Origin: an uncultured Chloroflexota bacterium
GTDB lineage: Bacteria > Chloroflexota > Dehalococcoidia > Lucifugimonadales > Lucifugimonadaceae
Assembly: GCA_913042135.1 (NCBI GenBank)
Contig: CAJWJL010000001.1
Location: 29,540 to 93,539 of the forward strand
Length of the DNA: 64,000 nucleotides
Direction of reading: 5' to 3'
In this document: positions 27,691 through 62,060 of the stretch, piece after piece
Numbering within the stretch: the first letter of the stretch is position 1
How the letters are laid out: the number at the start of each line of letters is the position of its first letter
The notes under the pieces: generated by a model
Told to the model about the DNA's origin: nothing
The model's database searches: none
What the model saw: only the letters and a program-made list of their open reading frames with translations
Made by a program: the position numbers and the translations under genes

Positions 27691-28137
27691 TTTAAAGCCT
27701 TGCGAAGAGTGGATATTTGATGTAACTTTTATCGTGTGGTCGTATAGCGTCCATATTTCAATCAAAGGTGCCTTATCGAGTCACATAGACGGCACCGAGC
27801 TGAAAAGCTTGGCTCCAACTGAACAACCTTCCTCTGCCGTAGCACTCACGGCTGTATCAACATCAAGTCTACCTCCTAAAGCTCCAAGCATTTTACCTTC
27901 AAGGTTTTCACCTTTTACTCCAACTATTTCGTTTCACACCTTTTTCCAGGGCGTTTAGGCGTGTTCTCTGCACGTCCATAGAGAACAGCCCTAAACCACC
28001 TTCGTGTGTCTCCGAATCTTGTTGCTGTTGTTGTTTTGACAATGGCACCTGATAAGTACCCCCAATCTAGCCATGAAACGGGTACGAACGCTGCGGCGTT
28101 TTGGCTAAATACTCAACCAATTAATTGGAGACACTTT

Positions 28138-28734: not shown

Positions 28735-29208
28735 ATGTATCAGAAAGTCATTCTTATTGGCCGTGTAGGTCAAAAGCAATTGGGTTACACCAAAACACAA
28801 AAGCCGGTCGCGCAATACTCGTTGGCAACAACGAAGTCCTTCAAGGACAAGCAAACTGGCGATTGGAATGAGCATACTGAATGGCACCGCTTGGTCTCAT
28901 TCAACCAGTGCGCCGAGCATGTGAACAACAAGCTTGAGCCTGGAGATCTCATTCAAGTAGAAGGCGAACTGCGCACGCGCAAATGGCAGGATCAAAGCGG
29001 TACCGATCGTTATACCACTGAAATTGTGGTGAATGATTTTCCGAAGAAACTGCCTCGCTACTACAACCGAGATGGTCAAGCTGCACCTGCACAACAGCAG
29101 GCTCCTCAGCGACAATCATCACAACCAATGGCACAAGCTGTCGGTCAGGAGTTCATGGCTCAGGGACCATCATTCGACTCGTTCGATGACATGGACATTC
29201 CGTTCTGA
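28735..29208 (+). CDS. ssb: Single-stranded DNA-binding protein
   Basis: KVILIGRVG, TEWHR, VEGELRTRKWQD..G.DRYTTEIV, acidic tail DDMDIPF. Confidence 0.95.
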   Translation: MYQKVILIGRVGQKQLGYTKTQKPVAQYSLATTKSFKDKQTGDWNEHTEWHRLVSFNQCAEHVNNKLEPGDLIQVEGELRTRKWQDQSGTDRYTTEIVVNDFPKKLPRYYNRDGQAAPAQQQAPQRQSSQPMAQAVGQEFMAQGPSFDSFDDMDIPF

Positions 29209-29231: not shown

Positions 29232-29272
29232 CACCCTGATGGGGACTTTCCCCTACAGGGTAAGCCCCATCA
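29232..29272 (+). repeat. Structured intergenic element R1
   Basis: accctg..gggga-ctt-tcccc..cagggt with an alternative tgatgggg/ccccatca stem. Confidence 0.55.
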
Positions 29273-29287
29273 TTTTCTCTATGGAGA

Positions 29288-29485
29288 ATGACTATGGGCT
29301 TTTCACGAAAAGAGGTTTATTTCTGGCTGGAGACAGCGAGCGATGAACAACTCCAGCACATGCTGAACACGTCGAAAGATATGCTCAGTATGCTCACCGA
29401 CAAAGAACAGGTTTCATCGTTGAAATGGCTTCGTGCCAAAATCATCGAAGAAATTAATGCCCGAAGAGAAGCTAAACAAGCTTAA
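29288..29485 (+). CDS. Small hypothetical protein
   Basis: 65-aa ORF, RBS ggag. Confidence 0.6.
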   Translation: MTMGFSRKEVYFWLETASDEQLQHMLNTSKDMLSMLTDKEQVSSLKWLRAKIIEEINARREAKQA

Positions 29486-29792
29486 AGCTTTGTTTGCGTT
29501 TTAACTTTTCGAGCAACTGGTCTTGCTCTTCCGGAGTACCAAAAGCGATGGATCGTATTGCTTGCCACTCTAATGTGTCAGGCTTGCCTTTCAATCGTTT
29601 ATCGGTCTCCTCTTGCAGATACTCCATAAAGTACGGGCTCGCCGCCTGTCTTGCCTGGATGTACTCCGCATACGTCTTGATAGCTTTGGCATCGATACCG
29701 GCTTTTGCCAGTAACGGAGCCTGATTGTCGAGACCAACCCTTGTAAACCTGAAATTACCTTGGTCATCCACGATGTAGTCTTGGGTTTGCAT
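29472..29792 (-). CDS. Hypothetical protein on the opposite strand inside the early region
   Basis: 106 aa, RBS aggagg, own promoter. Confidence 0.75.
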   Translation of the reverse strand: MQTQDYIVDDQGNFRFTRVGLDNQAPLLAKAGIDAKAIKTYAEYIQARQAASPYFMEYLQEETDKRLKGKPDTLEWQAIRSIAFGTPEEQDQLLEKLKRKQSFKLV

Positions 29793-29813
29793 ATCTCAAT
29801 ACCTCCTGGGGTC

Positions 29814-29842
29814 ATTATACCTCACATACTCAACTAGCAACC
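29814..29842 (-). promoter_or_regulatory. Promoter GGTTGCTA-N15-TATAAT (variant of the conserved motif)
   Basis: Reverse complement ggTTGCTAgttgagtatgtgaggTATAAT. Confidence 0.6.
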
Positions 29843-29854
29843 TGGAGCAATCCT

Positions 29855-30826
29855 ATGAATCAACCGCAAAACCAAGTGGCGCAAAAGCCCACTAACCAAT
29901 GGCACCAGGCAATTGAGTCCGCCAAGGACAAATTCTCTGGTTCCGGTCTGGACTTCTTTCAGGAGCAGATCTTTGCCACCCAACTCTTGATGAATAACAG
30001 CTACTTGCTGGATGTCGCCAAGAAAAACCCATCGAGTCTTCGCTTGGCGATGTACAACGTAGCGGCAGTCGGATTGACGCTGAACCCTAACCAGGGTCTG
30101 GCCTATCTGGTACCGCGACGATTACGCAAGAACGAAGACCCGAAAGTGATGCTCGACATCTCCTACCGGGGATTGATCACTATCGGTGTTGAAACGGGTG
30201 CAATTCGCTGGGCCAAGGCTGAACTTGTCTATGAGAAAGACCAGTTCACCTACAAAGGTCCAGCCGAGAAACCAGACCACTTCTGCGACCCTTTTTCTAC
30301 GGAAAGAGGAGCCGTTCGAGGTGGCTACTGTATCGCGGAACTTCCTTCTGGGGGTGTCCTGGTCGAGCCTATGTCCAAAGCGGACATGGACAAGATTCGG
30401 GATGTCTCAGAGGCCTTCAAGAAAGGTCTTGGCCCTTGGGTCGATTGGGAAGATCAGATGCAACTGAAATCGGTAGTGAAGCGAGCTTCCAAATGGTGGC
30501 CCAAGTCTACGCCTCGACTGGCTAAAGCCCTTCAGATCCTCAATGAGGAAAATGGAGAAGGCCTCGCCGTCCTGTCGAAAGATATGGCAACCGTAGGAAT
30601 GTTACCGCCTCCGCCGAGTCGTGATGAAGTGCCGCTTACTGTACAGAATACCGTGAAACAACTGGTAGACCGTGCGGTTAAGCAAAATGCTTTTGAAGCG
30701 TGTCGGGAGTTAATGGAAAGCCGGATCAAGAATCCTGCTGAACTGTCTTTTGCATATAGCGAACTGGATAAGGCCAAGGCTGAGTCTGAAGCGAAAATGC
30801 ACGAGCAGAAAATCATTAACGCCTGA
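29855..30826 (+). CDS. recT: RecT/Bet-family single-strand annealing recombinase
   Basis: GLTLNP..GLAYLVPR, LDISYRGL, AELVYEKDQF, GPWVDWEDQMQLKSVVKRASKWWP. Confidence 0.9.
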   Translation: MNQPQNQVAQKPTNQWHQAIESAKDKFSGSGLDFFQEQIFATQLLMNNSYLLDVAKKNPSSLRLAMYNVAAVGLTLNPNQGLAYLVPRRLRKNEDPKVMLDISYRGLITIGVETGAIRWAKAELVYEKDQFTYKGPAEKPDHFCDPFSTERGAVRGGYCIAELPSGGVLVEPMSKADMDKIRDVSEAFKKGLGPWVDWEDQMQLKSVVKRASKWWPKSTPRLAKALQILNEENGEGLAVLSKDMATVGMLPPPPSRDEVPLTVQNTVKQLVDRAVKQNAFEACRELMESRIKNPAELSFAYSELDKAKAESEAKMHEQKIINA

Positions 30827-30836
30827 TTTCAACTAA

Positions 30837-30892
30837 CACTCAACCTGCTGGGGTGATGCTTACTCCAGTGGAGGTGCATTGCCCCTTTTTTT
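30837..30892 (+). repeat. Structured intergenic element R2
   Basis: CACTCAAC-ctgctggggtgatgcttactccagtggaggtgcattgcccc-T7; near copy of R3. Confidence 0.75.
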
Positions 30893-30905
30893 ACAAGGAA
30901 TAGCA

Positions 30906-31247
30906 ATGATCACTTCCAACTCTAACTACAGAACAACTCTGTTCTACTTCAACAATGTGGATCAGCTTCGTGATTTTGAGTCCTTCAAAATCTGCCCTGT
31001 CCACGCTGGTCAGCACATTCCAGATACTGAAGCTGATAAAGCGGATTACTGGTGTGTCATCGGAATTTATAAGGCTGAGCAAGCGCGAGCGAACCAAAGC
31101 CCTTCTTTTCCGGTAGCTGATTTACCTACTGAGCTGTACGCAAACCTGTTCGCACAACTGTGTCGTCAACTGGTCAGCAGTACACCTGACAGTGCTTCAA
31201 CCAAAACACTGACAAAAGCTCTTCAGTCTCAAGCCTTAACAGCCTGA
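30906..31247 (+). CDS. Hypothetical protein
   Basis: ATG 30906 with RBS aagga. Confidence 0.7.
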   Translation: MITSNSNYRTTLFYFNNVDQLRDFESFKICPVHAGQHIPDTEADKADYWCVIGIYKAEQARANQSPSFPVADLPTELYANLFAQLCRQLVSSTPDSASTKTLTKALQSQALTA

Positions 31248-31262
31248 GATTAACCAATCTAT

Positions 31263-31312
31263 CACTCAACCCACTGGGGTAATGCTTACTCCAGTGGAGA
31301 TGGCATTACCTC
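31263..31312 (+). repeat. Structured intergenic element R3
   Basis: CACTCAAC-ccactggggtaatgcttactccagtggagatggcattacctc. Confidence 0.75.
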
Positions 31313-31330
31313 TATTTAGAGGAATCAGTA

Positions 31331-32335
31331 ATGTCAAATATGAAAGTAGTTGATCTTAATCAGCGTTCAGAGGAGTGGTTGCAATGGCGGTCTAAGGGAG
31401 TGACGGCATCGGATATTCCGATCATCCTTGGGCTCAGTCCATACAAGACACGTTGGCAACTTTGGGCGGAAAAAGTCGGGCGTATTAATGCTCCTGATAT
31501 ATCCAACAACCCCAATGTAAAACGTGGTGTTCGCCTTGAAGATGAAGCTCGCCAATTGGCCGAAGGTCGTTATGGTGAGGTTCTGCTTCCGCTCTGTGGG
31601 GAATGCGCTCGATGGGATGTGTTGCGTGCGAGCTTTGATGGGCTCGATTCAGCAATGCAACCATTTGAGTTCAAGGCCCCCAGTGAATCGGTGTGGGATG
31701 ACATCGAAAAGAAAGGTGTCGAGTCCAGTACGTACAAATTGTATGAGGCGCAAGTCCATGCTCAATGTGCAGTTGCTGGGACGACAACCGGTCGCCTGAT
31801 TTTTTATAAAGAAGGCGGTCAGGACCTAGATTTTTCTGTCACGTTAACACCTGAAAGGGAGAATGAAATCCTTGAGGCGGCAAAGCTCTTTTGGGAGCAC
31901 GTAGTAACCAATACGCCCCCTGAGCCTGATCCTGAAAGAGACTGGTATATACCGGAATCTGGAGATCAGCAGTTCAAGTGGGATGCGTATGCTGATGCAT
32001 GGCGCACGCAGCACCATCGCATACAAGCACTTAAAGATGAACTGAAAGTTCTTGAAAAAGAGCAGAAGGGGATTCAGAAGGCAATGATCACGTTGATGGG
32101 TCCGTTTATGCAGGCGGACATTGGTGGCGTGAAAGTTACCCGATTCATGAAGAAGGGCAGTATCGATTATGGCGCTTATCTGAAGGTCACGTTCCCAGAT
32201 AAAGACCTAACCGATGAACTGGAGTCCTACCGCAAAGCGTCTCGTGAGGAGTCTCGCTTCAGCAGGTCTGAAGATGAACTCGTTAATACGGATGTTGGTG
32301 AGGTTGTGACTACGGTGAAATCTGCTTACTTCTGA
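31331..32335 (+). CDS. YqaJ/lambda-Exo-family exonuclease
   Basis: QRSEEWLQWRSKGVTASD..IILGLSPYKT, G..LE..AR, RASFDG, EFKAP, Y..QV..Q. Confidence 0.92.
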   Translation: MSNMKVVDLNQRSEEWLQWRSKGVTASDIPIILGLSPYKTRWQLWAEKVGRINAPDISNNPNVKRGVRLEDEARQLAEGRYGEVLLPLCGECARWDVLRASFDGLDSAMQPFEFKAPSESVWDDIEKKGVESSTYKLYEAQVHAQCAVAGTTTGRLIFYKEGGQDLDFSVTLTPERENEILEAAKLFWEHVVTNTPPEPDPERDWYIPESGDQQFKWDAYADAWRTQHHRIQALKDELKVLEKEQKGIQKAMITLMGPFMQADIGGVKVTRFMKKGSIDYGAYLKVTFPDKDLTDELESYRKASREESRFSRSEDELVNTDVGEVVTTVKSAYF

Positions 32336-32574
32336 TATGTGAATTTAAGTGTGATGCCCTGGGGAGCTTGTAGCCCCAGGGTACAAATATTTGACTTGTC
32401 CACCATCGGACACCAGACAAGAATTCCGGCTTTCTTGCCCGTAAGCAAGGGAGCCAAACATAGCGGGTACTCCTGATTGGAGGCGAGGTTCGCAGGCTTC
32501 CCTAAAGCGTTTTCGCTGAGAGCGTTTTAGGGAGCCTGTGGGCTTCAAATTCAATCAAATTTAGGAGATTCGCT

Positions 32575-32829
32575 ATGACACATTTCGTAATGACTGAAGA
32601 ACAAGTACAGCAATCAGTTGCTGGTGCTCGAATAGAATCCGCCGTTTCGGTTGCGATCGCGCAAGCCGACAAAATGTCAGAATGCGGCGGTTGCCATATG
32701 ACCGTGGTGCGCACAAAGCGTCATGGAATATGTATCTATCACGACTACCAGATGAAAGTTGCTAAAGATGAAATCATTGAAGAAATCTACAGCACAGAGA
32801 ATGGTTTCATATTTCGGTCGGCTGCTTAA
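32575..32829 (+). CDS. Small hypothetical protein (paralogue of 28138-28374)
   Basis: 84 aa, RBS aggag. Confidence 0.7.
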   Translation: MTHFVMTEEQVQQSVAGARIESAVSVAIAQADKMSECGGCHMTVVRTKRHGICIYHDYQMKVAKDEIIEEIYSTENGFIFRSAA

Positions 32830-33092
32830 TGGCGGCTCCGAAGGAAGTGGGCAATACATGCATAGAGATGCAGCCTGTCATCAGAATCTGCATCTTGTAT
32901 TGCGCCTTACTACTCTATGTGAGGCGAGGCGGATACGTTGAGTATCTGCCTTCCTTATGTCCATTCTGGAAACGGAGTGGCTATAAGAAAGGCGAAATCG
33001 TCTTCACAGAATTTTGATCGTGCTCGCACGACAAAATAAGTGTCTATTCCGGATATTGAAACGGACACGACGGCTGCGGCTGTATATCCCTA

Positions 33093-33161
33093 CTCAACAT
33101 TTAAAGTCTAACCACGCCAGTAGGCCATCATCACCTACTGGGTGGTCGGTGTGCTTCTGGC
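33093..33161 (+). repeat. Structured intergenic element R4
   Basis: CTCAAC; ccagtagg/cctactgg stem and an alternative gccagtaggc/gcttctggc stem. Confidence 0.5.
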
Positions 33162-33204
33162 TGGGGTGACTTATACCTCAACACAATGTAATAGGAGCAC
33201 ATCC

Positions 33205-34170
33205 ATGACACATCGTGATCAAGCTTTAGCTGTTCGCACTACTTTCAACCTTGATGTACCCGCTGAGGTCATCACAGCAGGCTTTGCTGACACACAGAAC
33301 CCTCATGTGCCTAACCGCGATGATGGCTATGTGTTTCGTCGGGAAACCTTGCGCGACATCCTGAGTTTTCTGGATGACCCCGATGGCGATGGTTTGTATT
33401 TCTCTGGTCACTACGGTGCCGGTAAAACAACCTTGCCCTACCAGGTAGCCGCTCGGCTTTGCTGGCCAGTTCAATCCTTCACGGCTCACAGTCGTATGGA
33501 ATTTGATGATCTGGTTGGTACCTGGAAACTGGTCAACGGCACCATGCAATTCCTGCATGGACCCTTAGCCGTTGCCATGCGTGAAGGTCACTTGTTCATA
33601 TTGAACGAAATCGACCGCGCCGATCCTGGTCAGCTTGCTGGTCTGCATGATGTCCTTGAAGGGCATCCCTTGGTTATTGCAACCAATGGAGGAGAGGTGA
33701 TTCGCGCACATGAAAACTTTCGATTCATTGCCAATGGCAACAGCATGGGATCTGGAGACAGTACCGGGCTGTATCAAGGCGTTAACCAATTGGATATAGC
33801 CTTTATGGATCGATTCAGGGTGGTCGAAGTTGATTATCCAACCGAGGATGTCGAAATGATGATCCTCCAAAAGAAAACACCAGAGCTTCCCGAAGAAATC
33901 CGTCGGAACATGATTCGCGTTGCGAACCAGATCCGGAGGCTGTTCATTGGTGGAGAGGAATCGGCTACGCCGTTGACCATTACGATGTCTACTCGTGCCT
34001 TGTGCCGGTGGGCAAAGTTAACCCTGGTGTTTCGCAATGCGCCTAACGCGCTCGCTTATGCTTTGAATCAGTCGTTGCTTGCAAAGGCTGAACCTGAACA
34101 GAAGATTGCGATCGAGCAAATTGCTAGAGACGTGTTTGGCTCAACCTGGCAACAGGGAGAGGCAGCATGA
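33205..34170 (+). CDS. CbbQ/NirQ/NorQ (MoxR/CobS-like) AAA+ ATPase
   Basis: Walker A GHYGAGKT, GPLAVAMREG..FILNEID, FRFIANGN, AFMDRF..VEVDYP, STRAL. Confidence 0.9.
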   Translation: MTHRDQALAVRTTFNLDVPAEVITAGFADTQNPHVPNRDDGYVFRRETLRDILSFLDDPDGDGLYFSGHYGAGKTTLPYQVAARLCWPVQSFTAHSRMEFDDLVGTWKLVNGTMQFLHGPLAVAMREGHLFILNEIDRADPGQLAGLHDVLEGHPLVIATNGGEVIRAHENFRFIANGNSMGSGDSTGLYQGVNQLDIAFMDRFRVVEVDYPTEDVEMMILQKKTPELPEEIRRNMIRVANQIRRLFIGGEESATPLTITMSTRALCRWAKLTLVFRNAPNALAYALNQSLLAKAEPEQKIAIEQIARDVFGSTWQQGEAA

Positions 34171-34991
34171 GCAATGAATTTGTCGTACTTCATTACCAGG
34201 ATGGCAGCTCCGATAAGATCTGGGCTATCAATAAAGTAGCGAATGCGGATAACTCGCACACCGTTTGGTTTGGTAGACGCGGAACCAAGCTGCAAAGCAA
34301 GAAAGTTGGCTATAAAACATGGTCTTCTTTAATGCAAAGCAAGCTGGATAAGGGCTATCACGAAGTGGAAAACGTCACTATTGATGTTGAAAACAGCGTG
34401 GTTGTTCCTTTTCTTCAGGCAACTGAAGAATCCGAAGAGTTACCTGATGCCTTGTGGTACCGGGTGTCCAATCAGGTTCCTGTGAATGTGATTCGTGACT
34501 ATCTGAATATCACTATTCAACTGGTTTCCGAGCATAGCAATGAGGAGTTAGAGCGGTTAATTCAGCTTCCGACTTACAAAGCGTTATATGCGGGGAAAAA
34601 GAGCGGTGGTGCTGACTACACGGAGGGGCCTTTGGCCCTTCTGTTGTTGTTTGGTTTACGTCGTTACCTAAATGATGTTGCTGGTTCTCCGCTATCTACG
34701 GAAATCATGCAGATTGCTAATGATGGAAGTGAGCTTCTCCCTGAGAGGTTTGCGGACATAGAGGACTATGTTCGTTCCTATGCCATTGGGTTGTTTGAAC
34801 ACAACGGATGGTTTGGGAACCGGACAAGTGGTGATTGGAAGGAATATGTCGATGGCGTAGCCAGACAGCATAACCTTTCTCACTACACCTCAGTAATTGG
34901 CATCAAGCCATTAGCAATTGTGATGGGATGTATTGACGCTCCGATTGATCTGACGGTTATCCGTACAGAGACAAAGGCTGCGTTTTTCTGA
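34167..34991 (+). CDS. Protein with N-terminal WGR-like domain
   Basis: GSSDKIW...VWFGRRG...SKLDKGY pattern. Confidence 0.65.
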   Translation: MSNEFVVLHYQDGSSDKIWAINKVANADNSHTVWFGRRGTKLQSKKVGYKTWSSLMQSKLDKGYHEVENVTIDVENSVVVPFLQATEESEELPDALWYRVSNQVPVNVIRDYLNITIQLVSEHSNEELERLIQLPTYKALYAGKKSGGADYTEGPLALLLLFGLRRYLNDVAGSPLSTEIMQIANDGSELLPERFADIEDYVRSYAIGLFEHNGWFGNRTSGDWKEYVDGVARQHNLSHYTSVIGIKPLAIVMGCIDAPIDLTVIRTETKAAFF

Positions 34992-35109
34992 CTGTCGCCA
35001 ACCTGGATGGGCAACCATCCTATTCTCAACCTCCTCTGGCCTTTAGGCCAAACACTCAATCTCGCTAGGTAACTAGCTACTCAACCACTTTCTCTACAAG
35101 GAGATACAC

Positions 35110-36054
35110 ATGGAATTTATCCGTGGGACCACACTCGTCCATTTGAAAATGCGCTGCTGGGGCGGAGAGAAAAAGGCCTCCCGAGACAGCGACATTCACT
35201 TAGGCGCTGACGGCAAAATGCCGCCAGAAAAACTGCTCGATTTGGGCAGAAAGAAGATATTTCCACCAAAGGCGCTCGACCCTTTAATGAGTAAGCGTAA
35301 AGCGGCGGAAAGAGCTTGTTTAGCTGAAGGTACACGTTTCATGGGCGGCTTTGCCGTTCCCGATGATGTTGTAGAAGGTCTTTTGGCCAAACTCGAAGAC
35401 ATCAAGGAAATGTTCTATTCGGAGTTGCAGGTATTTCTTGCTGATTTCGACCGGAACAAAGAAGCGTGGATCGCGGAGAACGACGAATTTGCACACATCA
35501 TTCGTGACCAGGTTCCTGACCGGGAAACGGTGTCAAAGTCGTTTGAATTCTCCATCAAGCTTTACAAGCTACAGCCACTCGAAGGCTTCGAGCCTGACGA
35601 AAATGAAGTGGCGAACCAGATCTTGCATGAGGTGGGTTTAACCTGCAAACAGATGTCTGATCGCATGTTGGACCGGAAACGGTCAATCAGCGGTAAGAAC
35701 CTCTCTGAGCAGCTCGATCCTCTTATCAAGAAACTCGATACCTTGTCGTTCGGTAATGGTCGCATCCTGAAGGTACTTAATGAGTTTTTTGCTCTGCAAA
35801 AAGCCATTCCGATGGAAATGATTGACCAGGATCACCCGACATTTGGGCAAGTGCTTACCTTCCTTTCAATGTGTTCTGACAGCGACAAGCTTGAACGAAT
35901 CATTGATGGGCAATTTTCAGTAAGCAAGCTCATAGAGGATATGAAACGGTCGGTAACGGTTTCCAGCTCGTCTGGACCAGAGCCAACCATACCAAAATCA
36001 ACCCAACCTGCGGCTGTGACAACGCACACCATAACGGCTGGGGCTTACTTCTAG
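35110..36054 (+). CDS. DUF3150-family protein
   Basis: W.GEKK...LG.KKI....L......K..AER.C...GTRFMGGFAVP; synteny with AAA/vWA. Confidence 0.8.
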   Translation: MEFIRGTTLVHLKMRCWGGEKKASRDSDIHLGADGKMPPEKLLDLGRKKIFPPKALDPLMSKRKAAERACLAEGTRFMGGFAVPDDVVEGLLAKLEDIKEMFYSELQVFLADFDRNKEAWIAENDEFAHIIRDQVPDRETVSKSFEFSIKLYKLQPLEGFEPDENEVANQILHEVGLTCKQMSDRMLDRKRSISGKNLSEQLDPLIKKLDTLSFGNGRILKVLNEFFALQKAIPMEMIDQDHPTFGQVLTFLSMCSDSDKLERIIDGQFSVSKLIEDMKRSVTVSSSSGPEPTIPKSTQPAAVTTHTITAGAYF

Positions 36055-36064
36055 GGAGGTTCGT

Positions 36065-37867
36065 ATGAACAAACTGCAAACCGCCCTGGAAAGGGCTCTA
36101 CCTATTGTTGCGGCTGCCTATGGCGAACAGTTCGGTGTCAATGTTGTGCTGTCTGGCACGGACGCATACACCGATGGTGAGACCATTTACTTGCCTTTGC
36201 TGAACGCTATGAGTGAGCTGAGAGAAGTGTTGTTTGGCTATCTCGCTCACGAAGCTGCGCACGTTCGATCATCGGATTTCAACACCTTGAAAAAGTGTAA
36301 GAGTCCGATGGAGAAATCCTGTACCAACCTCATCGAGGACATCAGGATCGAGCGTCTCATTCAGGAAGTGTTTCCTGGTACTCAGTTTACGCTGAATGCC
36401 ATGTGGAGCTATATCGTGGAGCAGGGCATGAGCCCTCCCGCGACGCCTGAAGACAATGAAGCAACCCAGTTGTTTCAGTACCTCTTACATCGCTTGCGAT
36501 CGGAGGTGCTGCATCGGGACGCTTCAACTCCGCTGGCGGAGTCAAGCCAACGGGTGGTTGAACAGACATTTCCGGTAGGTTTTTTCGTCCGTTTGGATGG
36601 CTTGCTTGGAAAACACTTGGACAACTTAACCTGTAGCGACGACTGCCTGAAGTTGGCGAGAGCCATACTCAAGGCCTTGAAGGATGCTGAAGAAGAGGAA
36701 CGCCAACAGCAACAAAACCAGGAACAACAGCAGCAAAGCAGCGATTCATCGCAAGGTGATCAAAGCCAACAAGCTGGTGGATCGGGTGGAAGTGGTGACG
36801 GCGAATCACAACCTCAACCGGGAAAGGCAGACTCATCGAACGGTGGTGATGCTAACCAGGGGACAGGAGACTCACAGCAGTCCAGCGCAGACAGTGATGG
36901 CAACGGCAACCAGGCTCAGGATACTGGGTCAGGAAACCAGTCATCGTCGGCCCAAGGTGCATCGGATTCGTCCGGTGATCAGGGTCAACCTCAAGGTGGC
37001 AACGGTGCTTCTTTGCATGAGCGGCTCATTAACGAGACCAATCTGCCAGAGGATGCCGTTGGGCAGCTACGAGAGCAATTGGCAGATCAAGCCCGTAAAG
37101 ACAACGATGGAGAACGTGTGGCCATTGATACGTCCAGCGTGGGGAGTGATGCCCGAAATCATGGTGATACCAGTAGTTTGAAAACCGGCATTCTTGCCTC
37201 TTCAACTATTCGGTCGCGCCTGCTCGGTCTGCTGCAAGCCCAAACCCGTCAAAAGCAATGGTTACATACCAGAGGCAAGCGGGTAGACGGCAAACGCCTG
37301 GCCAGACTGCCAACCGGCGATTCGCGGGTGTTTATCCAGCGAGAGGAGATGCAACGACCTGACACTGCGGTTCATGTGCTGCTTGATTGCAGCGGTTCCA
37401 TGAATCGAATTCAGGAAGTCGCAAATCAAGCCACGGTGTCCTTGGCATTGGCTGTATCCACTATCCCGAAGTGTGACATCGCTGCGTCGATGTTTCCGGG
37501 TATTGGTGGAGAGGTCAGTCCGATACTGCATCGTGGTCAGCCTGTTCGTGCTGGTCTGGGACGATTCGCTGTTTGCTCAAGTGGCGGTACACCATTGGCA
37601 GAAGCCATGTTGTATGCCGCCAGAGAGTTAGTGGCGAGTAAGCGTCAGCGCAAGGTGCTCATCATCATCACTGATGGTGCCCCAAATAATGGGGGAGCAG
37701 TTCGATATTTGAACGACCTTGTTGCTGGTCACGTTGATACCTATGCAATTGGTATCGGCTCAAATGCGGTTAGTCAGTACTTCGAGAAGTGGTCTGTGAT
37801 CAACGATGTGAAGGAGCTTCAAAAAGCGCTTTTCACGATAGCTGGCCAATTCCTCGACCTGCACTAA
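36065..37867 (+). CDS. vWA (CobT-like) protein with N-terminal HExxH domain and Q/S/G-rich linker
   Basis: AYTDG, HEAAH, N.IED.RIE; MIDAS LDCSGSM, GGTPL, ITDG. Confidence 0.88.
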   Translation: MNKLQTALERALPIVAAAYGEQFGVNVVLSGTDAYTDGETIYLPLLNAMSELREVLFGYLAHEAAHVRSSDFNTLKKCKSPMEKSCTNLIEDIRIERLIQEVFPGTQFTLNAMWSYIVEQGMSPPATPEDNEATQLFQYLLHRLRSEVLHRDASTPLAESSQRVVEQTFPVGFFVRLDGLLGKHLDNLTCSDDCLKLARAILKALKDAEEEERQQQQNQEQQQQSSDSSQGDQSQQAGGSGGSGDGESQPQPGKADSSNGGDANQGTGDSQQSSADSDGNGNQAQDTGSGNQSSSAQGASDSSGDQGQPQGGNGASLHERLINETNLPEDAVGQLREQLADQARKDNDGERVAIDTSSVGSDARNHGDTSSLKTGILASSTIRSRLLGLLQAQTRQKQWLHTRGKRVDGKRLARLPTGDSRVFIQREEMQRPDTAVHVLLDCSGSMNRIQEVANQATVSLALAVSTIPKCDIAASMFPGIGGEVSPILHRGQPVRAGLGRFAVCSSGGTPLAEAMLYAARELVASKRQRKVLIIITDGAPNNGGAVRYLNDLVAGHVDTYAIGIGSNAVSQYFEKWSVINDVKELQKALFTIAGQFLDLH

Positions 37868-37875
37868 TGGCTTCG

Positions 37876-37930
37876 CTCAACACCCTGCGGGGATACATCT
37901 CCCCCGCACGGGTGAGGTGTGTCTTCCCGC
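37876..37930 (+). repeat. Structured intergenic element R6
   Basis: CTCAAC-accctgcggggatacatctcccccgcacgggtgaggtgtgtcttcccgc. Confidence 0.7.
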
Positions 37931-37948
37931 TACACCGGGAGGTCCACT

Positions 37949-38266
37949 ATGGAGCAACTGTCATTGATGGACTTGCTTGAGGCGCTTGAGAACGACACAA
38001 AGTTCGAGGGTGACCTGGAGAAGATCCTTACCGATGAAGATATTCCGTACCTTCGGGAAAACCTACTAATCGAGTCAGTGAAATCTGCCTTTGGTGAAAG
38101 TCGTGGTGGCCAGAAACGTAAGCCATCTGATGAAGCCTGGGAGTGGATTATTTCGGAAGATCGGGAGCTGCCGTTCTCGTTCAACCAATGCTGCCTCGCT
38201 TGTGGAGTCGATCCCGACAAGATGCTTGATTGGCTGCGTTACTACAAACGCAAGTTCATGAGCTAA
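37949..38266 (+). CDS. Hypothetical protein
   Basis: ATG 37949 with RBS ggagg; AWEWI...PFSF..CC...GVDP. Confidence 0.75.
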   Translation: MEQLSLMDLLEALENDTKFEGDLEKILTDEDIPYLRENLLIESVKSAFGESRGGQKRKPSDEAWEWIISEDRELPFSFNQCCLACGVDPDKMLDWLRYYKRKFMS

Positions 38267-38320
38267 CTCAACCCAAACCTGGGACATAAACACTGTGTCC
38301 CTATGGGCATGGTGTGTCCC
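38267..38320 (+). repeat. Structured intergenic element R7
   Basis: CTCAAC; gggacata can pair with either of two tgtgtccc copies (38294, 38313). Confidence 0.6.
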
Positions 38321-38343
38321 TCACTCAACGAAAGGTAAACACC

Positions 38344-38511
38344 ATGTCTAATACTCAACAAAATGTAATTAAACATCAGCAGGTAAATGCACGCGGTACA
38401 CCGATTCGCCAAATCACGGTTTATACCCCGGAGCGAGTAACAGAGCTGTTCTATCAGTTTGTTATGGAGCAATGGGTACCGTACAAGCGAGTCGTTCATT
38501 CCGTGCATTGA
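38344..38511 (+). CDS. Small hypothetical protein (55 aa)
   Basis: ATG 38344 with RBS aaagg. Confidence 0.6.
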   Translation: MSNTQQNVIKHQQVNARGTPIRQITVYTPERVTELFYQFVMEQWVPYKRVVHSVH

Positions 38512-38512
38512 T

Positions 38513-38535
38513 AAAGGGGCCTCGCCCCTTTGTTT
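38513..38535 (+). terminator. Terminator-like hairpin
   Basis: aaaggggc-ctc-gccccttt followed by gttt. Confidence 0.5.
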
Positions 38536-38590
38536 CACTGGCTGACAGTGGAACTGAAAAATTTGGTGAAACTGTCAGAGGGAGATACCT

Positions 38591-39667
38591 ATGAAGAAAC
38601 GAAACTCAACTGAAATGAAGCGCCGAATGGAAGGCCGTTGGCTTGCTGCTTTCAAAGCACTCGCGCCAGCACTGGATCAGGCCATCGACAACCTCGGTAC
38701 GAATGTACCTTGCCCGGTTGAAGGTGGAACGGACGGTTTTAGGCTTTTCAAAGACGCCAACTACACAGGCGGTGGAGTAAAACAGTCATGGCGTATTATC
38801 CCGGAAGGGATCGATATGCTCATGTGGGTAAATGATTGGTCCTTTACCAAGGTCTACGATGAACTTGAAGCCTGGTTGGGTGATAAACCTGTCGAGGCTG
38901 GACCGAAATATCTACCAAAGCCTAAGCCTGTAGATGAAGAGGGTCTGCGCAAGTGGCTGAACAGGATTTGGAAAGAGGCATTGCCTTTGACCGATCTTGC
39001 AGCTTATCCAGCTCGGGCTTACTTCAGCTACCGTTGGGTGAATACTGCTGCATTGTCTGCCAACGATGTGCGGTTTCATCCTTGTCTTAACTACAAAGAC
39101 AAACAGGGCAACGTTCTCGGTAAGTTCGGAGCAGTCCTGTCCCTGGTGCGCAATAACGAGGGAGAGCCAGTCGCGATACATCGGACGTTCATCACTAAAG
39201 GTGGATTGAAGGTAAATCTCGGCAAAACTCATAAACCTAAGAAGATGACGCCTTCTGTGAATCAACGCAGTAAGGGGCGGCATATTCGGTTGTTTGCACC
39301 ACAAAACGGTTACTTGGGAGTCTCTGAAGGTCTGGAAACTGCGCTCGCGGTATACCAGGCTAAGCAGTTTCCCGTTTGGCCGGGCCTGTCCAACACAATA
39401 CTTCAATCGTTCGTTCCTCCAAAGGGCGTGCATACGATTCTGAATTTTGTGGATAAAGACAGAAACAAAGCAGGGGAGAATGCGGCGGAAATTCTTCGGG
39501 CAAATTTAGCGCCTAAAGGTATTCGCGTTATCGACCTGTTACCTCCAACGCCGATTCTCGATACCGATGAAAAAGGTGTTGATTGGGCGGATCAGTTGAA
39601 AAGGGATGCCAGTGGCTTTGGTCTGATAGACCAGGCACTTGCCTTCAGCCGACTGAAACAAGCCTGA
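38591..39667 (+). CDS. Primase-like protein (P4-alpha-type N-terminus, DUF7146-like, C-terminal TOPRIM)
   Basis: PCP..GGTDGFR, RFHP, AIHRTFI, LGVSEGLETAL, VDKD, DWAD. Confidence 0.85.
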   Translation: MKKRNSTEMKRRMEGRWLAAFKALAPALDQAIDNLGTNVPCPVEGGTDGFRLFKDANYTGGGVKQSWRIIPEGIDMLMWVNDWSFTKVYDELEAWLGDKPVEAGPKYLPKPKPVDEEGLRKWLNRIWKEALPLTDLAAYPARAYFSYRWVNTAALSANDVRFHPCLNYKDKQGNVLGKFGAVLSLVRNNEGEPVAIHRTFITKGGLKVNLGKTHKPKKMTPSVNQRSKGRHIRLFAPQNGYLGVSEGLETALAVYQAKQFPVWPGLSNTILQSFVPPKGVHTILNFVDKDRNKAGENAAEILRANLAPKGIRVIDLLPPTPILDTDEKGVDWADQLKRDASGFGLIDQALAFSRLKQA

Positions 39668-39671
39668 CTAC

Positions 39672-39729
39672 CTCAACTACTACCCTGCGGGGACACACTC
39701 CCCGTAAGGGGAGTAGTGTTTCTGCGGGT
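39672..39729 (+). repeat. Structured intergenic element R8
   Basis: CTCAAC-tactaccctgcggggacacactccccgtaaggggagtagtgtttctgcgggt; close to R6. Confidence 0.7.
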
Positions 39730-39752
39730 TTCCTCAACATAAGGAGATCAAT

Positions 39753-40145
39753 ATGCAGAATGATTTATCAACCATGCAGTCGGTCGAAATACCGGTTAGC
39801 AAACTTGAACAAATGGCTTATGGCCATGCGACAGCCCAATTCATTAGCTGTGACAACGGCTTTGAAGGCACCTGGTTTGAACGCTATCAGTATCTGTCTG
39901 AGTGTGTTTCAGACAACAAAGAGCCTGAAGGGTGGGTTGCGTGGCAGCCGTTTGAAACATGGGAATGGAGCGACATCGTTGAGCAGATCGACAGTGAAGC
40001 TGACTCATTTCTTTCCACAATGAAGCAAGCGCTGGAGTATGCCAAAAATAGCATTGTTGCTTCAGCAATTGATTGCTCACTCGATAGCGATATGAATCAG
40101 TTGGATATGATTCATTTGATCGAGCTGGGTTCCAAAGAGCAGTAA
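39753..40145 (+). CDS. Acidic hypothetical protein
   Basis: 130 aa, RBS aaggag. Confidence 0.75.
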   Translation: MQNDLSTMQSVEIPVSKLEQMAYGHATAQFISCDNGFEGTWFERYQYLSECVSDNKEPEGWVAWQPFETWEWSDIVEQIDSEADSFLSTMKQALEYAKNSIVASAIDCSLDSDMNQLDMIHLIELGSKEQ

Positions 40146-40185
40146 ACCACTGGTGAAGTAATTCACCAACATACGATGAATTCGA

Positions 40186-40219
40186 CCCTGGAGGGTGTTG
40201 CCCTTCAGGGGCTACATCC
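40186..40219 (+). repeat. Structured intergenic element R9 (minimal)
   Basis: ccctggaggg/cccttcaggg stem and an alternative gggtgttgcc/ggctacatcc stem. Confidence 0.45.
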
Positions 40220-40259
40220 GTCCGGACGTTGAGGTCATTAAACGAAAGGAAGGTGTAGT

Positions 40260-40799: not shown

Positions 40800-40824
40800 A
40801 AGGGCCTCTTCGGAGGCCTTTTTC
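40800..40824 (+). terminator. Intrinsic terminator
   Basis: aagggcctc-ttcg-gaggccttt ttc. Confidence 0.75.
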
Positions 40825-47851: not shown

Positions 47852-48730
47852 ATGAGGCTACTCATGGCTGATGAAAAGCATGAAGTTCTACTAAGGCTGA
47901 GAGCAATTGAATTGCTGGCATACTGGGAGGGACGATTGGTTACCAATCGGCTCATGTCCTGGTTTGGTATCAGCCGACAACAGGCTTCATCTGATATTAA
48001 GCGTTATATAAGTGTTCACAATCCTGGCTCCCTTTATCACGATCCGGGAGTTAAAGGGTATGTCCCACAAGGGGACTTCCAACCGGTCTTAACGAAGGGT
48101 CATATCAACGAATACCTGGATATGATTTCCGGTCTGGTCAGCGAATCTGTCGCTGTGACTCTCGAATCCGAAGATCATCTTGCTGCTGTCCAACTGCCCG
48201 ATCGCACGGTTCGGCCAGAAATAGTCCGAGAAATATTGCGAGCTTGCCGGACGCAAACCAGCGTAAAAATCCTCTACGCCTCTATGACCAACCCTGTGTG
48301 GAGTGAGCGTGTTATATCTCCGCACACACTGGTTTATACAGGGTTCCGTTGGCATGTTCGTGCGTACTGCCACAAGCGTGGTGAATTCCGTGACTTCATT
48401 CTGTCCAGGATAGACCGGACACCAAAACCTGCTACAGAGTCGTCACCCGATCCAATGCACGACTCATTGTGGAATGAGCAGATCCTGTTAACCATTGTGC
48501 CGAACCCAAAGTTGAACGATGGGCAGAAAGCTCTGGTAGAGAAGGATTTTGGTATGCCCGATGGTCGGTTACAGATTTCGGTGAGAAAAGCACTGGCACA
48601 CTATACCTTGCAGCGTTATCAGGCGGCGATAACCGTTGATGAAGCAGCCGATGAGTTTAAGTTCCCCATCATCCTACTGGATTCAGATCGAAAGAAGCTG
48701 AGTCCTTTTTTGTTTGGCTCAGAGTCTTAG
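47852..48730 (+). CDS. brxR: WYL-domain transcriptional regulator BrxR
   Basis: wHTH (IELLAYWEG...FGISRQQASSDI..Y), WYL core (Y.SM...R.ISPH.L...G.RWHVRAYC...FRDFILSRI); start could be 47864. Confidence 0.9.
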   Translation: MRLLMADEKHEVLLRLRAIELLAYWEGRLVTNRLMSWFGISRQQASSDIKRYISVHNPGSLYHDPGVKGYVPQGDFQPVLTKGHINEYLDMISGLVSESVAVTLESEDHLAAVQLPDRTVRPEIVREILRACRTQTSVKILYASMTNPVWSERVISPHTLVYTGFRWHVRAYCHKRGEFRDFILSRIDRTPKPATESSPDPMHDSLWNEQILLTIVPNPKLNDGQKALVEKDFGMPDGRLQISVRKALAHYTLQRYQAAITVDEAADEFKFPIILLDSDRKKLSPFLFGSES

Positions 48731-48736
48731 GGGAGG

Positions 48737-49354
48737 TTGAGTTTGATAAAGCAGTTCCATTATGACAGCGACATGGCGGGTGGCTCCCTCATGGTGAGAG
48801 AAAGCCGTATCGTTGCTGGTTTGCTAATGGACGGCGTAACACCTGAACAGTGGGATGAAGCAATTCGTGTAGAGAACGTGTTGCAAAAACGCACGCCAGC
48901 GTCAGCAAAGCGAAATGCCACGGCGATTCGCAAACGACTTGAGCGTCTGGAGCCGGAGTTCTGGCGAGCGTTGAGAGATGGTGATGACGAGCTGGCCACA
49001 CAGGTGGCCTTTTGTGGTGCGCTGGAGCGGAATCTTTTGTTGGTGGAGTTTATGGAGACGGTACTTCGTGATGCCTACATGTCGAGAGCTGAGCATCTCG
49101 ATGCGTTTGTTTGGGCGGATTTTCTCGAAGACCGGTCGCATAGAGATCCAGCTATTTGTGACTGGAAGGAATCCACGAAAAAGAAAATGGGGCAGGTGGT
49201 GTTTCGTATGCTTGCCGAGGTTGGGTACCTGAAGAGTACACGAAAGCTTGAACTACAGCATGTTGTGGTAAGGCCTGAAGTCAAAACCATGCTCGAAGAG
49301 CATTACAAACAGAGAATTAAAAAGTGCATGGAAGTGTCGGCATGGACGCGATAA
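48737..49354 (+). CDS. brxA: BREX protein BrxA (DUF1819)
   Basis: GGSLMVRESR, ENVLQKRT..SAKR, W..ST.KK......ML.EVGYL. Confidence 0.9.
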   Translation: MSLIKQFHYDSDMAGGSLMVRESRIVAGLLMDGVTPEQWDEAIRVENVLQKRTPASAKRNATAIRKRLERLEPEFWRALRDGDDELATQVAFCGALERNLLLVEFMETVLRDAYMSRAEHLDAFVWADFLEDRSHRDPAICDWKESTKKKMGQVVFRMLAEVGYLKSTRKLELQHVVVRPEVKTMLEEHYKQRIKKCMEVSAWTR

Positions 49355-49371
49355 GTGCATTGGGAGCAACT

Positions 49372-49947
49372 ATGGATCAACGACTACATGACCGGCTGAA
49401 TCAGATACCAGACAAGATTCTGTCCCCAGAGTTTTTGAGTGGGCAGGGACTGGGAAATGAAATTGGCTTCTGGATATTTGATTACGAGCCTGAGCAAGAA
49501 CTTGGGGTTCGAGAGTATATCGAATTCCTTGAGGTTATGTTGGCCAAGAAGCACAGCCATTTGAAGGTGGTTAACATCAATCTTCTCAAGTGCCTGGTCG
49601 GTTATCTTGCCGATCGCAACTTCGTTGATAAAGCCATAGAGATGCAGAAGATCAAAGGTGATGAGGCCTTGATGAAAGCCTTGAAAGGGCCGCTGCACAT
49701 GGACAAATTCGCGCCTTACCTGACAGAAAAACATTCCGCTACCGAGCAGGACATCATCTTCATTACTGGAGTGGGTTCTGTTTGGCCGTTATTGCGAGCA
49801 CACAACCTGCTAAACAGCCTTCATTCACTGTTGGGGCATAAGCCTGTCGTCCTGTTTTATCCCGGCCAATACAACGGCCAGGCAATGAGCCTGTTCGGGA
49901 GAATACCCAGCAACAATTACTACAGAGCCTTCAGGTTGGTTCCGTAA
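49372..49947 (+). CDS. brxB: BREX protein BrxB (DUF1788)
   Basis: GLGNEIGFWIFDY.P..EL, GVGSVWPLLRAH.LLN.LH, FYPG.Y, NYYRAFRLV. Confidence 0.93.
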   Translation: MDQRLHDRLNQIPDKILSPEFLSGQGLGNEIGFWIFDYEPEQELGVREYIEFLEVMLAKKHSHLKVVNINLLKCLVGYLADRNFVDKAIEMQKIKGDEALMKALKGPLHMDKFAPYLTEKHSATEQDIIFITGVGSVWPLLRAHNLLNSLHSLLGHKPVVLFYPGQYNGQAMSLFGRIPSNNYYRAFRLVP

Positions 49948-49992
49948 GCGATGGCGACCAATTAATAAGAATTTCAGGGGAATCAACACACT

Positions 49993-53652: not shown

Positions 53653-53664
53653 GGAAGTAATCAC

Positions 53665-59951: not shown

Positions 59952-59980
59952 CCATGATTTGACGATAGAGCGTGCCGAGT

Positions 59981-62020: not shown

Positions 62021-62060
62021 TGAAAGGCAACGAAATGAAATCAGGGTTAGAAGGACGTTC

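What the first reader, a model, noticed from the sequence alone, without database searches (positions are those of the whole stretch)
29232..40219. Family of about 8 CTCAAC-led pseudoknot/bistable elements upstream of early-region genes
Seen: elements at 29232, 30837, 31263, 33093, 37876, 38267, 39672 and 40186 lie between a stop codon and the next RBS, and six are preceded by CTCAAC. In each, one G-rich segment can pair with a proximal complement (hairpin A) or a distal complement (hairpin B). R3 example: ccactggggtaa/ttactccagtgg versus ggggtaatgc/gcattacctc. Partial use of both stems gives an H-type pseudoknot. Primary sequence differs between subfamilies (R2/R3 versus R6/R8) but topology is kept. 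R2/R3 substitutions preserve pairing through G-U wobbles on the + strand only, which argues for folding on the mRNA or + ssDNA. In R2, hairpin B is followed by T7 (terminator-like). Inference: a repeated cis-regulatory switch, processing/stability signal or cassette-shuffling site coordinating establishment genes. It may relate to the radC or STAXI RNA motifs described near DNA-manipulation genes on mobile elements.
Basis: partly seen in the sequence, partly recalled or inferred. Interest (0 to 1): 0.78.

Follow-up and report, generated by a model that had tools for sequence, protein, structure and literature searches.

The report
Repeated three-helix translation switches on plasmid
Eight genes in a DNA-repair and anti-defence operon of a marine conjugative plasmid are each preceded by a 60-100-base leader predicted to fold over the gene's ribosome-binding site and to carry a competing helix that would free it; the same design recurs in SXT and IncC resistance elements, where one copy is reported to repress translation, and what flips it is untested.

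Summary
The eight elements are real; each beats 99-100 of 100 shuffles. Each leader runs: G-poor linker, X, X', T, ribosome-binding site. X pairs X' (helix A) or T (helix B). T also pairs the Shine-Dalgarno/start codon (helix C). A+C is predicted to be the stable OFF fold; B frees the start. T fits its own gene's start better than other genes' or orthologues' starts. A and B abut, so they are alternatives, not a pseudoknot. The window is a MOB_H conjugative plasmid about 98% identical to Vibrio tubiashii p123. The operon lies about 44 kb from the relaxase, so it is probably not a leading region. The same design precedes 11 of 18 IncC genes and 8 of 16 SXT-type genes tested, including bet, whose translational attenuator is already reported (Garriss 2013, not readable here). 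CTCAAC is a local linker word, not the signature. A true covarying STAXI-like pseudoknot does exist, but elsewhere: 28056-28106 and 33040-33088. There is no Rfam hit. The trigger is unknown. Verdict: variant of a known attenuator, interest 0.55.

The parts
29233..29300 (+). Switch R1 before small gene g1 (ATG 29294; 29288 also possible). A 29233-29261, B 29237-29272, C 29263-29300
   Evidence: detected in 5 of 6 orthologues
30844..30914 (+). Switch R2 before g2 (ATG 30906). A 30845-30871, B 30850-30885, C 30873-30914; seven T after B. 39/46 nt identical to R3
   Evidence: 6 of 6 orthologues
31271..31336 (+). Switch R3 before the YqaJ exonuclease (ATG 31331). A 31271-31297, B 31276-31312, C 31301-31336
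   Evidence: pair counts; 11 of 13 orthologues
33105..33204 (+). Switch R4 (long form) before the MoxR/CbbQ AAA gene (ATG 33205). A 33112-33145, B 33105-33171, C 33148-33203
   Evidence: 11 of 13 orthologues
37881..37948 (+). Switch R6 before g6 (ATG 37949). A 37881-37914, B 37887-37930, C 37916-37948
   Evidence: 6 of 9 orthologues
38272..38346 (+). Switch R7 before g7 (ATG 38344). A 38272-38307, B 38281-38320, C 38308-38346. Missed by my automatic detector; found by folding hand-set ranges
   Evidence: 3 of 7 orthologues
39677..39760 (+). Switch R8 before g8 (ATG 39753). A 39677-39716, B 39684-39728, C 39720-39760; OFF and ON close in energy
40186..40258 (+). Switch R9 before g9 (ATG 40260). 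A 40186-40210, B 40188-40225, C 40212-40258
   Evidence: 5 of 5 orthologues
28056..28106 (+). STAXI-like H-type pseudoknot (S1-L1-S2-UGAAAY-S1'-tetraloop hairpin-S2') before the first operon gene (ATG 28138); a separate motif, not one of the eight
33040..33088 (+). Second STAXI-like pseudoknot, directly 5' of switch R4, preceded by a small hairpin at about 33017-33034
28735..29208 (+). ssb (PF00436); no switch
29855..30826 (+). recT/bet-like annealase (PF03837); no switch here (0 of 12 orthologues)
31331..32335 (+). YqaJ exonuclease (PF09588)
33205..34170 (+). AAA_5 + CbbQ_C ATPase, about 52% identical to the IncC AAA protein (the vcrx089-type gene)
35110..37867 (+). DUF3150 gene and CobT/vWA gene; no switch
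38591..39667 (+). Toprim/DUF7146 primase-like gene; no switch
40800..40821 (+). Terminator-like hairpin, likely end of the operon

Best explanation
Each element is an mRNA leader with three alternative helices that likely works as a translation switch: hairpin A plus the anti-RBS helix C is predicted to keep the downstream gene OFF, and helix B, which captures the anti-RBS strand, would turn it ON. Shown from sequence and comparison: the three complementarities, their conservation across divergent sequences, their confinement to this operon and the + strand preference. Predicted: OFF is about 7 kcal/mol more stable than ON. Once B forms, A's outer 3' arm is tucked into an inner hairpin, so ON would be long-lived. 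Inferred trigger (about 40%): something lands on the unpaired, G-poor linker and peels the first 4-7 pairs of A. For inner genes this is most likely the ribosome finishing the upstream gene, giving a gene-by-gene relay. Copies far from any upstream stop need another occupant, such as an RNA-binding protein. Inferred purpose: the long ssb-recT-exo-AAA-vWA transcript can be made while its potentially harmful recombination and anti-restriction proteins stay untranslated until needed, probably on entry into a new host.
For: A, B and C are present in all eight. A/B beats shuffles. My detector flags 48 of 60 orthologous leaders but 0 of 73 leaders of seven neighbouring genes; an eighth gene, wgr, scored 5 of 11. 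It flags 7 of 14 operon genes, 7 of 76 other genes of the contig (ragged folds) and 11 of 250 host genes. In a test where T was defined with the RBS removed, T paired its own start region at -12.3 kcal/mol, against -8.0 for other genes' starts and -10.6 for permuted orthologues (0 of 5000; n=60). On the exo alignment, B had 84% of cells paired and 9 two-sided changes (0/500 shuffles), and C had 81% paired (2/500). A's outer arm is paired in the ON fold in 70 of 71. The linker is 7% G. The upstream stop is within 25 nt of A in 48 of 71. The same anatomy precedes bet in an SXT-type element and ssb, bet and exo in IncC. [quoted passage not shown] IncC homologues of these genes act in the recipient (PMC7498323, passages).
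Against: All folds are predictions; there is no probing or reporter data for this plasmid. B, the ON state, has no experimental support that I could find. On MAFFT alignments the covariation of A and C was modest (A: 35/500 for % paired; C: only 2 pairs with two-sided change, 218/500). The detector's false-positive rate is about 4-9% on real genes and up to 7/30 on shuffles. It missed R7 and 12 of 60 orthologues, and the energy ladder is biased by how elements were selected. For the trigger: only 15 of 71 copies have the upstream stop within 9 nt, the approximate reach of a terminating ribosome. Of 24 copies picked as far from or lacking an upstream gene, only 2 have a strong-SD ORF ending near A. 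The first gene of the SXT-type operon carries a switch. recT of this plasmid has none.
Confidence: 0.7

Rival explanations
1. Static brakes: A and C are two fixed hairpins that damp translation and stabilise processed mRNA pieces. B is a by-product of palindromic, G/C-rich sequence and is never used.
For: OFF is the predicted minimum-energy fold in most copies. The only reported experiment on a relative shows repression (review passage).
Against: B uses the loop of A, which has no role in A or C, and loop and tail change together across orthologues (X:T cognate -17.6 versus -11.8 for other exo orthologues). B outperforms shuffles.
Confidence: 0.12
2. Same switch, flipped by a trans-acting factor only: a plasmid or host RNA-binding protein or small RNA that binds the C-rich linker and base of A, possibly loaded at the STAXI-like pseudoknot. 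This is a rival for the trigger, not for the anatomy.
For: Operon-first and stop-distant copies have switches. The CCC/GGG base of A is the only broadly kept primary sequence. The contig encodes a CsrA-cold-shock fusion outside the window, and pCAR1 has csrA near its ssb-recT genes. The pseudoknot sits directly 5' of R4.
Against: No binding motif is shared beyond A[AC]CC (55 of 71). No candidate antisense RNA was looked for beyond a CTCAAC reverse-complement count (1 in the spacers). The pseudoknot model finds nothing in SXT/IncC loci.
Confidence: 0.3
3. Kinetic timer: during transcription A converts to B before the RBS emerges, giving a brief window of translation on nascent mRNA, which later relaxes to A+C. 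This too is a rival for the trigger.
For: B is predicted more stable than A in 68 of 71 detected copies, and A+C more stable than B on average. ON hides the return toehold in 70 of 71.
Against: The 68/71 figure is inflated by selection. In 10 of 71 copies B is followed by a U-tract, so co-transcriptional B would risk termination, including at the first IncC gene.
Confidence: 0.18
4. Transcription attenuators: B plus a U-tract is an intrinsic terminator and A is its antiterminator.
For: R2 and 9 other copies have 6 or more U after B.
Against: 61 of 71 do not. The U-run lies in the loop of helix C, opposite the purine-rich SD.
Confidence: 0.05
5. DNA-level role first: single-strand promoters/origins, or recombination sites for shuffling gene cassettes.
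For: IncC intergenic repeats (rptI) are used by Bet/Exo for break repair (PMC7498323), and two IncC switches share a long identical leader. R2 resembles R3 (39/46) more than its own orthologue (26/46), and g2 is absent in several relatives.
Against: Folding favours the mRNA strand, not the template strand. No sigma-70-like site lies in any element (5 found in the region, 14.2 expected). T co-adapts to the start codon, which a DNA role does not explain. The operon is far from the relaxase.
Confidence: 0.05

Closest known systems
Translational attenuator upstream of bet in SXT/R391 ICEs, also present in IncA/C plasmids (Garriss, Poulin-Laprade and Burrus 2013; seen only as summarised in PMC4542580)
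   Same: Same operon type (ssb, annealase, exonuclease, AAA, DUF3150, vWA, primase) on a MOB_H element. The ssb-bet spacer of an SXT-type locus and of IncC has the same A/B/C anatomy.
   Different: Here on a plasmid with an ICE-type (TIGR037xx) transfer system. Eight copies, none before recT itself. The review mentions one attenuator and repression only; the ON helix and the repetition are not in the passages I saw. The original paper was not held and may already show them.
Predicted RBS-sequestering structure 5' of IncC vcrx089, and the rptI repeats (Roy et al. 2020, PMC7498323)
   Same: The IncC AAA gene leader scores as the same switch; the window's R4 precedes the homologous gene.
   Different: The paper reports one predicted OFF fold (passages and a supplement legend) and treats the repeats as recombination substrates.
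STAXI RNA motif (RF01728) and radC RNA motif (RF01754), Weinberg et al. 2010, PMC2864571
   Same: For the two pseudoknots at 28056 and 33040: same topology as the STAXI unit (stem, pseudoknot stem, UGA(G/A)A linker, nested tetraloop hairpin; a small 5' hairpin at 33017), near ssb. radC alignment rows show a similar fold, followed by the start of a CCC..GGGA..UCCC..G hairpin like helix A (my reading).
   Different: The eight switches have none of this anatomy. The pseudoknots are single, not tandem, have a 5-7 nt first loop and lack the STAXI 5' consensus. Neither Rfam model scores.
repY-repZ / repB-repA pseudoknot-dependent translational coupling of IncI1 and IncB/O plasmids
   Same: Works like it: the strand that hides the RBS is captured by an upstream hairpin loop, which frees the start (brief passage and reference titles; details recalled).
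   Different: That system has a single replication gene, a leader peptide overlapping the inhibitory stem and antisense control. Here the element is repeated, has no leader peptide, and B replaces A rather than forming a stable pseudoknot.
EGeRS1 leaders of pLS20 and ssDNA promoters (Frpo/ssi) of F and ColIb-P9
   Same: Repeated structured sequences in front of establishment-type genes (PMC8708921, abstract and section 4.1).
   Different: EGeRS1 is 400-600 bp, in Bacillus. ssDNA promoters fold on the template strand and contain promoter hexamers; these elements are 60-100 nt, fold on the mRNA strand and lack them.

Membership tests
SXT/IncA-C bet-type translational attenuator | Lies in the leader of genes of the ssb/bet/exo/AAA operon of a MOB_H conjugative element | tested here: met
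   recT itself has no copy
SXT/IncA-C bet-type translational attenuator | Stem-loop that sequesters the SD/start codon | tested here: met
   predicted helix C in 8 of 8; cognate-pairing test
SXT/IncA-C bet-type translational attenuator | Same anatomy as the element at the SXT bet position | tested here: met
   L048, judged SXT/R391-type by gene order (recalled), has A/B/C at bet; whether this is exactly what the 2013 paper drew could not be read
SXT/IncA-C bet-type translational attenuator | Sequence homology to the SXT/IncC copies | not tested
   no covariance model of the switch was built; only the CCC/GGG base is visibly shared
SXT/IncA-C bet-type translational attenuator | Strong repression of translation in vivo | not testable with these tools
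   needs reporter assays
STAXI (RF01728) - the eight listed elements | Rfam model match | tested here: not met
STAXI (RF01728) - the eight listed elements | Pseudoknot unit with UGA(G/A)A linker and nested hairpin | tested here: not met
   pattern search finds only 28056 and 33040 on the contig
STAXI (RF01728) - pseudoknots at 28056 and 33040 | Pseudoknot unit with UGA(G/A)A linker and tetraloop hairpin, covarying | tested here: met
   97.5% cells paired, 15 of 17 pairs with two-sided change; published unit
STAXI (RF01728) - pseudoknots at 28056 and 33040 | Unit repeated two or three times in tandem | tested here: not met
   single units 5 kb apart
STAXI (RF01728) - pseudoknots at 28056 and 33040 | Rfam model match | tested here: not met
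   window; eight related loci
radC motif (RF01754) | Rfam model match | tested here: not met
   the consensus structure line of the published alignment was not seen
ssDNA promoter (Frpo/ssi type) | Fold on the template strand with -35/-10 hexamers | tested here: not met
ssDNA promoter (Frpo/ssi type) | Located in the leading region next to oriT | tested here: inconclusive
   44 and 64 kb from mobH in p123; oriT not located
Intrinsic terminator / transcription attenuator | U-tract after the stem | tested here: not met
   10 of 71 copies only

The most novel reading that the evidence does not exclude
SXT, IncA/C, IncP-7 and this marine plasmid family share an operon-wide post-transcriptional control layer. 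One three-helix RNA switch is copied in front of most anti-defence and recombination genes, each tuned to its own start codon, and a single cue in the new host flips them all on. In this family a single STAXI-like pseudoknot at the head of each sub-operon may be the loading site for that cue.
Probability: 0.3. Interest if true: 0.8.

Novelty: new variant of a known kind. Interest (0 to 1): 0.55.

Why it matters
IncC homologues of these genes help incoming plasmids survive restriction and CRISPR-Cas and must be expressed in the recipient, while in SXT the operon is reported to be highly transcribed but translationally throttled. How the throttle is lifted is open. A conserved ON helix in front of many of these genes turns that into a concrete test, and would be a target for blocking plasmid establishment. 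The two pseudoknots give strongly covarying single-unit relatives of STAXI, a motif with no known function.

Tried and rejected
Rfam: no relevant hit in the window at E<=1, in the region at E<=10, in eight relatives, in five further loci, or at the switch positions of SXT-type and IncC loci. H-type pseudoknot for the eight elements: rejected on geometry. CTCAAC as signature: rejected. General terminator role: rejected. Leader peptides as a general trigger: 2 of 24. Switch calls elsewhere on the contig and at the wgr start: ragged folds, treated as detector background. X as a sequence mimic of the start region: only a slight excess (6.15 versus 5.63 of 9). The pseudoknot covariance model found nothing in IncC, SXT-type, Photobacterium or Pseudomonas loci. 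RNA-run contigs cover the region and some bridge several spacers, but the runs were found with this stretch, may contain DNA and give no strand or ends, so they were not used as evidence. A search of 401 genomes of the host's class found the AAA gene only in the window's own genome. Hit H115 turned out to be a prophage, not SXT. Garriss 2013 and Praszkier 2002 were not held. The supplement of Weinberg 2017 could not be read; it and Additional file 1 of Weinberg 2010 (no radC/STAXI prose seen) may bear on novelty. Literature searches found no description of an operon-wide three-helix family; most subscription journals are outside that library.


Full report
Context. The window lies on contig C1 (107 kb) of an assembled genome. 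C1 aligns at 97.6-99.3% over long blocks to the circular Vibrio tubiashii plasmid p123, which has a MobH relaxase, a RepB initiator and ICE-type transfer genes. Relatives occur in Dasania, Marinobacter, Microbulbifer and marine metagenomes (41 loci at that stage). The region 28.1-40.6 kb is a co-oriented block: ssb, recT, YqaJ exonuclease, AAA_5/CbbQ_C ATPase, DUF3150, CobT/vWA, a primase-like gene and small unknown genes. Its order is kept in the relatives and nearly matches a chromosomal locus that I take, from recalled gene order, to be SXT/R391-type. In p123 the block is about 44 kb from mobH one way and 64 kb the other; oriT was not located.

Observation. Each has helix A (proximal) and helix B (distal). 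With the RBS left out, 0-1 of 100 shuffles per element gave an A/B pair as strong, while four control spacers were unremarkable (6, 8, 100 and 100 of 100). The + strand is favoured: B is stronger on + in 52 of 60 elements as RNA and 46 of 60 as DNA; C in 45 of 60 as RNA but only 35 of 60 as DNA.

What was missed. The tail T that forms B also pairs with the SD and start codon, often into the first codons (helix C; 8 of 8). The fold with the start closed is A+C, and the fold with the start forced open is B. Across 70 detected elements OFF was on average 6.8 kcal/mol more stable (range -13.8 to +1.9). To avoid circularity I defined T from the upstream part alone, in 60 orthologous leaders from 13 representative loci (the window plus 12 of the 41). 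T paired its own start at -12.3 kcal/mol, against -8.0 for other genes and -10.6 for permuted orthologues (0 of 5000). Some T calls in that test were wrong, which weakens rather than inflates it. On a sequence-only alignment of 16 exo leaders (16 of 19 distinct), B was well supported (9 two-sided cells, 0/500), C less so (81% paired, 2/500; two-sided pairs 218/500) and A weakly (35/500).

Specificity and spread. My detector is a script with a background of 11 of 250 host genes and 7 of 76 other contig genes, against 7 of 14 operon genes; R7 was missed and g1 fell below the length filter. It flags 48 of 60 orthologous leaders, 0 of 73 leaders of recT, DUF3150, primase, g0, g3, ssb and vWA, and 5 of 11 for wgr, which I treat as background. 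On hand-picked annotated starts it flags 11 of 18 in IncC (including ssb, bet, exo and the AAA gene), 6 of 10 and 3 of 9 in two Pseudomonas plasmids, 2 of 14 in a Photobacterium plasmid, and 8 of 16 in the SXT-type locus (one weak), including bet and the first gene.

Not a pseudoknot, not CTCAAC-defined, not a terminator family. A's 3' end and B's 3' arm are 2 nt or less apart in 63 of 71 elements, too short to span a 9-12 bp stem (established loop geometry, recalled). A loop-tail contact could still be the folding intermediate (inference). CTCAAC marks unpaired linkers in this plasmid family only. U-tracts follow B in 10 of 71. No promoter-like site falls in an element.

A real pseudoknot nearby. 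A pattern search for stem-stem-UGAAA-stem-hairpin-stem found two sites on C1 (window 28056-28106 and 33040-33088), two in the other 2.2 Mb of the genome, and one in ten shuffles of C1. Twenty-one copies from orthologous positions gave 97.5% paired cells and two-sided changes in 15 of 17 pairs. The paired percentage is partly built in, because rows were picked by the pattern, but the two-sided changes at fixed genomic positions are not. The published STAXI unit (ten rows and the structure lines seen; text) has the same topology, linker and tetraloop, but is tandem. Rfam does not score these sites, and my model finds them only in this plasmid family. They work like single STAXI units; membership is not met.

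Mechanism. Shown: three complementarities, co-adaptation of T to each start, strand preference, operon confinement. Predicted: default OFF, and an ON fold that hides A's outer arm in 70 of 71. Inferred: occupancy of the linker (7% G) and the base of A tips the balance to B. The upstream stop lies within 9 nt of A in 15, 10-25 nt in 33, further in 13 and was not found in 10 of 71. Only 2 of 24 stop-distant copies have a strong-SD ORF ending nearby. A ribosome relay therefore fits many inner copies but cannot be the whole story. A trans factor (the contig encodes a CsrA-cold-shock fusion) and a kinetic window remain live.

What is known. PMC4542580 (passages) reports a strong translational attenuator upstream of SXT bet, also present in IncA/C and untested there. 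PMC7498323 (passages and supplement legends) predicts an RBS-sequestering fold at vcrx089, shows that the operon acts in recipients, and shows intergenic repeats used in repair. The 2013 primary paper was not available. PMC2864571: passages and supplement parts. PMC5737381: main-text passages only. PMC8708921: abstract and section 4.1. PMC4705826 and PMC8053102: reference titles and passages. Nine literature searches showed no operon-wide three-helix family. Earlier notes of this scan reach the same reading on IncA, IncC, IncHI and SXT elements (consulted after my analysis; 8 of 15 shown); they are unchecked and not independent support, but they show that the switch is not new to the scan. Three other look-ups returned nothing, including one with the pseudoknot-plus-R4 sequence.

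Verdict. A real, conserved family of predicted translation switches, of the same kind as the SXT bet attenuator. The ON helix, the repetition and the single STAXI-like pseudoknots are the parts that I could not find in print. Novelty: new variant of a known kind. Interest 0.55.

Noticed in passing
window 32455-32575 (+): Very long, near-perfect hairpin (about 50 bp, z -11.9) in front of small gene g3, whose base pairs with the RBS; kept with compensatory changes in six relatives. Possibly an RNase III site or a DNA cruciform; unexplained.
   Followed up: partly
window 32352-32385 (+): Lone CCC..GGG hairpin just after the exo stop, resembling helix A without a tail; in L020 it is followed by a U-run, so it may be a terminator.
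   Followed up: no
window 29472-29792 (-): A 106-aa ORF on the opposite strand between g1 and recT, annotated in four related plasmids; no Pfam family. It interrupts the operon and could give antisense RNA.
   Followed up: partly
L050:445-846 (C1 1444-1845, outside the window): CsrA-cold-shock-domain fusion protein; p123 also has a second cold-shock-domain gene. Candidate RNA-level regulators.
   Followed up: partly
window 30833-30876 and 31259-31302: R2 is 39/46 identical to R3 but only 26/46 to its Marinobacter orthologue, suggesting conversion or re-duplication in this lineage; g2 is missing in several relatives.
   Followed up: partly
window 47852-63482 (+): BREX defence cluster (WYL regulator, brxA, brxB, brxC and following large genes) on the plasmid.
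   Followed up: no
contig C1 as a whole: C1 is 107 kb against 41 kb for the next contig, is nearly p123 without its resistance transposon region, and its AAA gene was found in none of 400 other genomes of the host's class; its binning to this host is doubtful.
   Followed up: partly
window 35030-35080 and 38514-38580 (+): DUF3150 and primase leaders hold two small hairpins each, conserved in position across relatives but without the three-helix design.
   Followed up: no
L009:2541-2590, L039:6818-6866, L013:11424-11511, L014:11463-11550: A third copy of the STAXI-like pseudoknot in some relatives.
   Followed up: no
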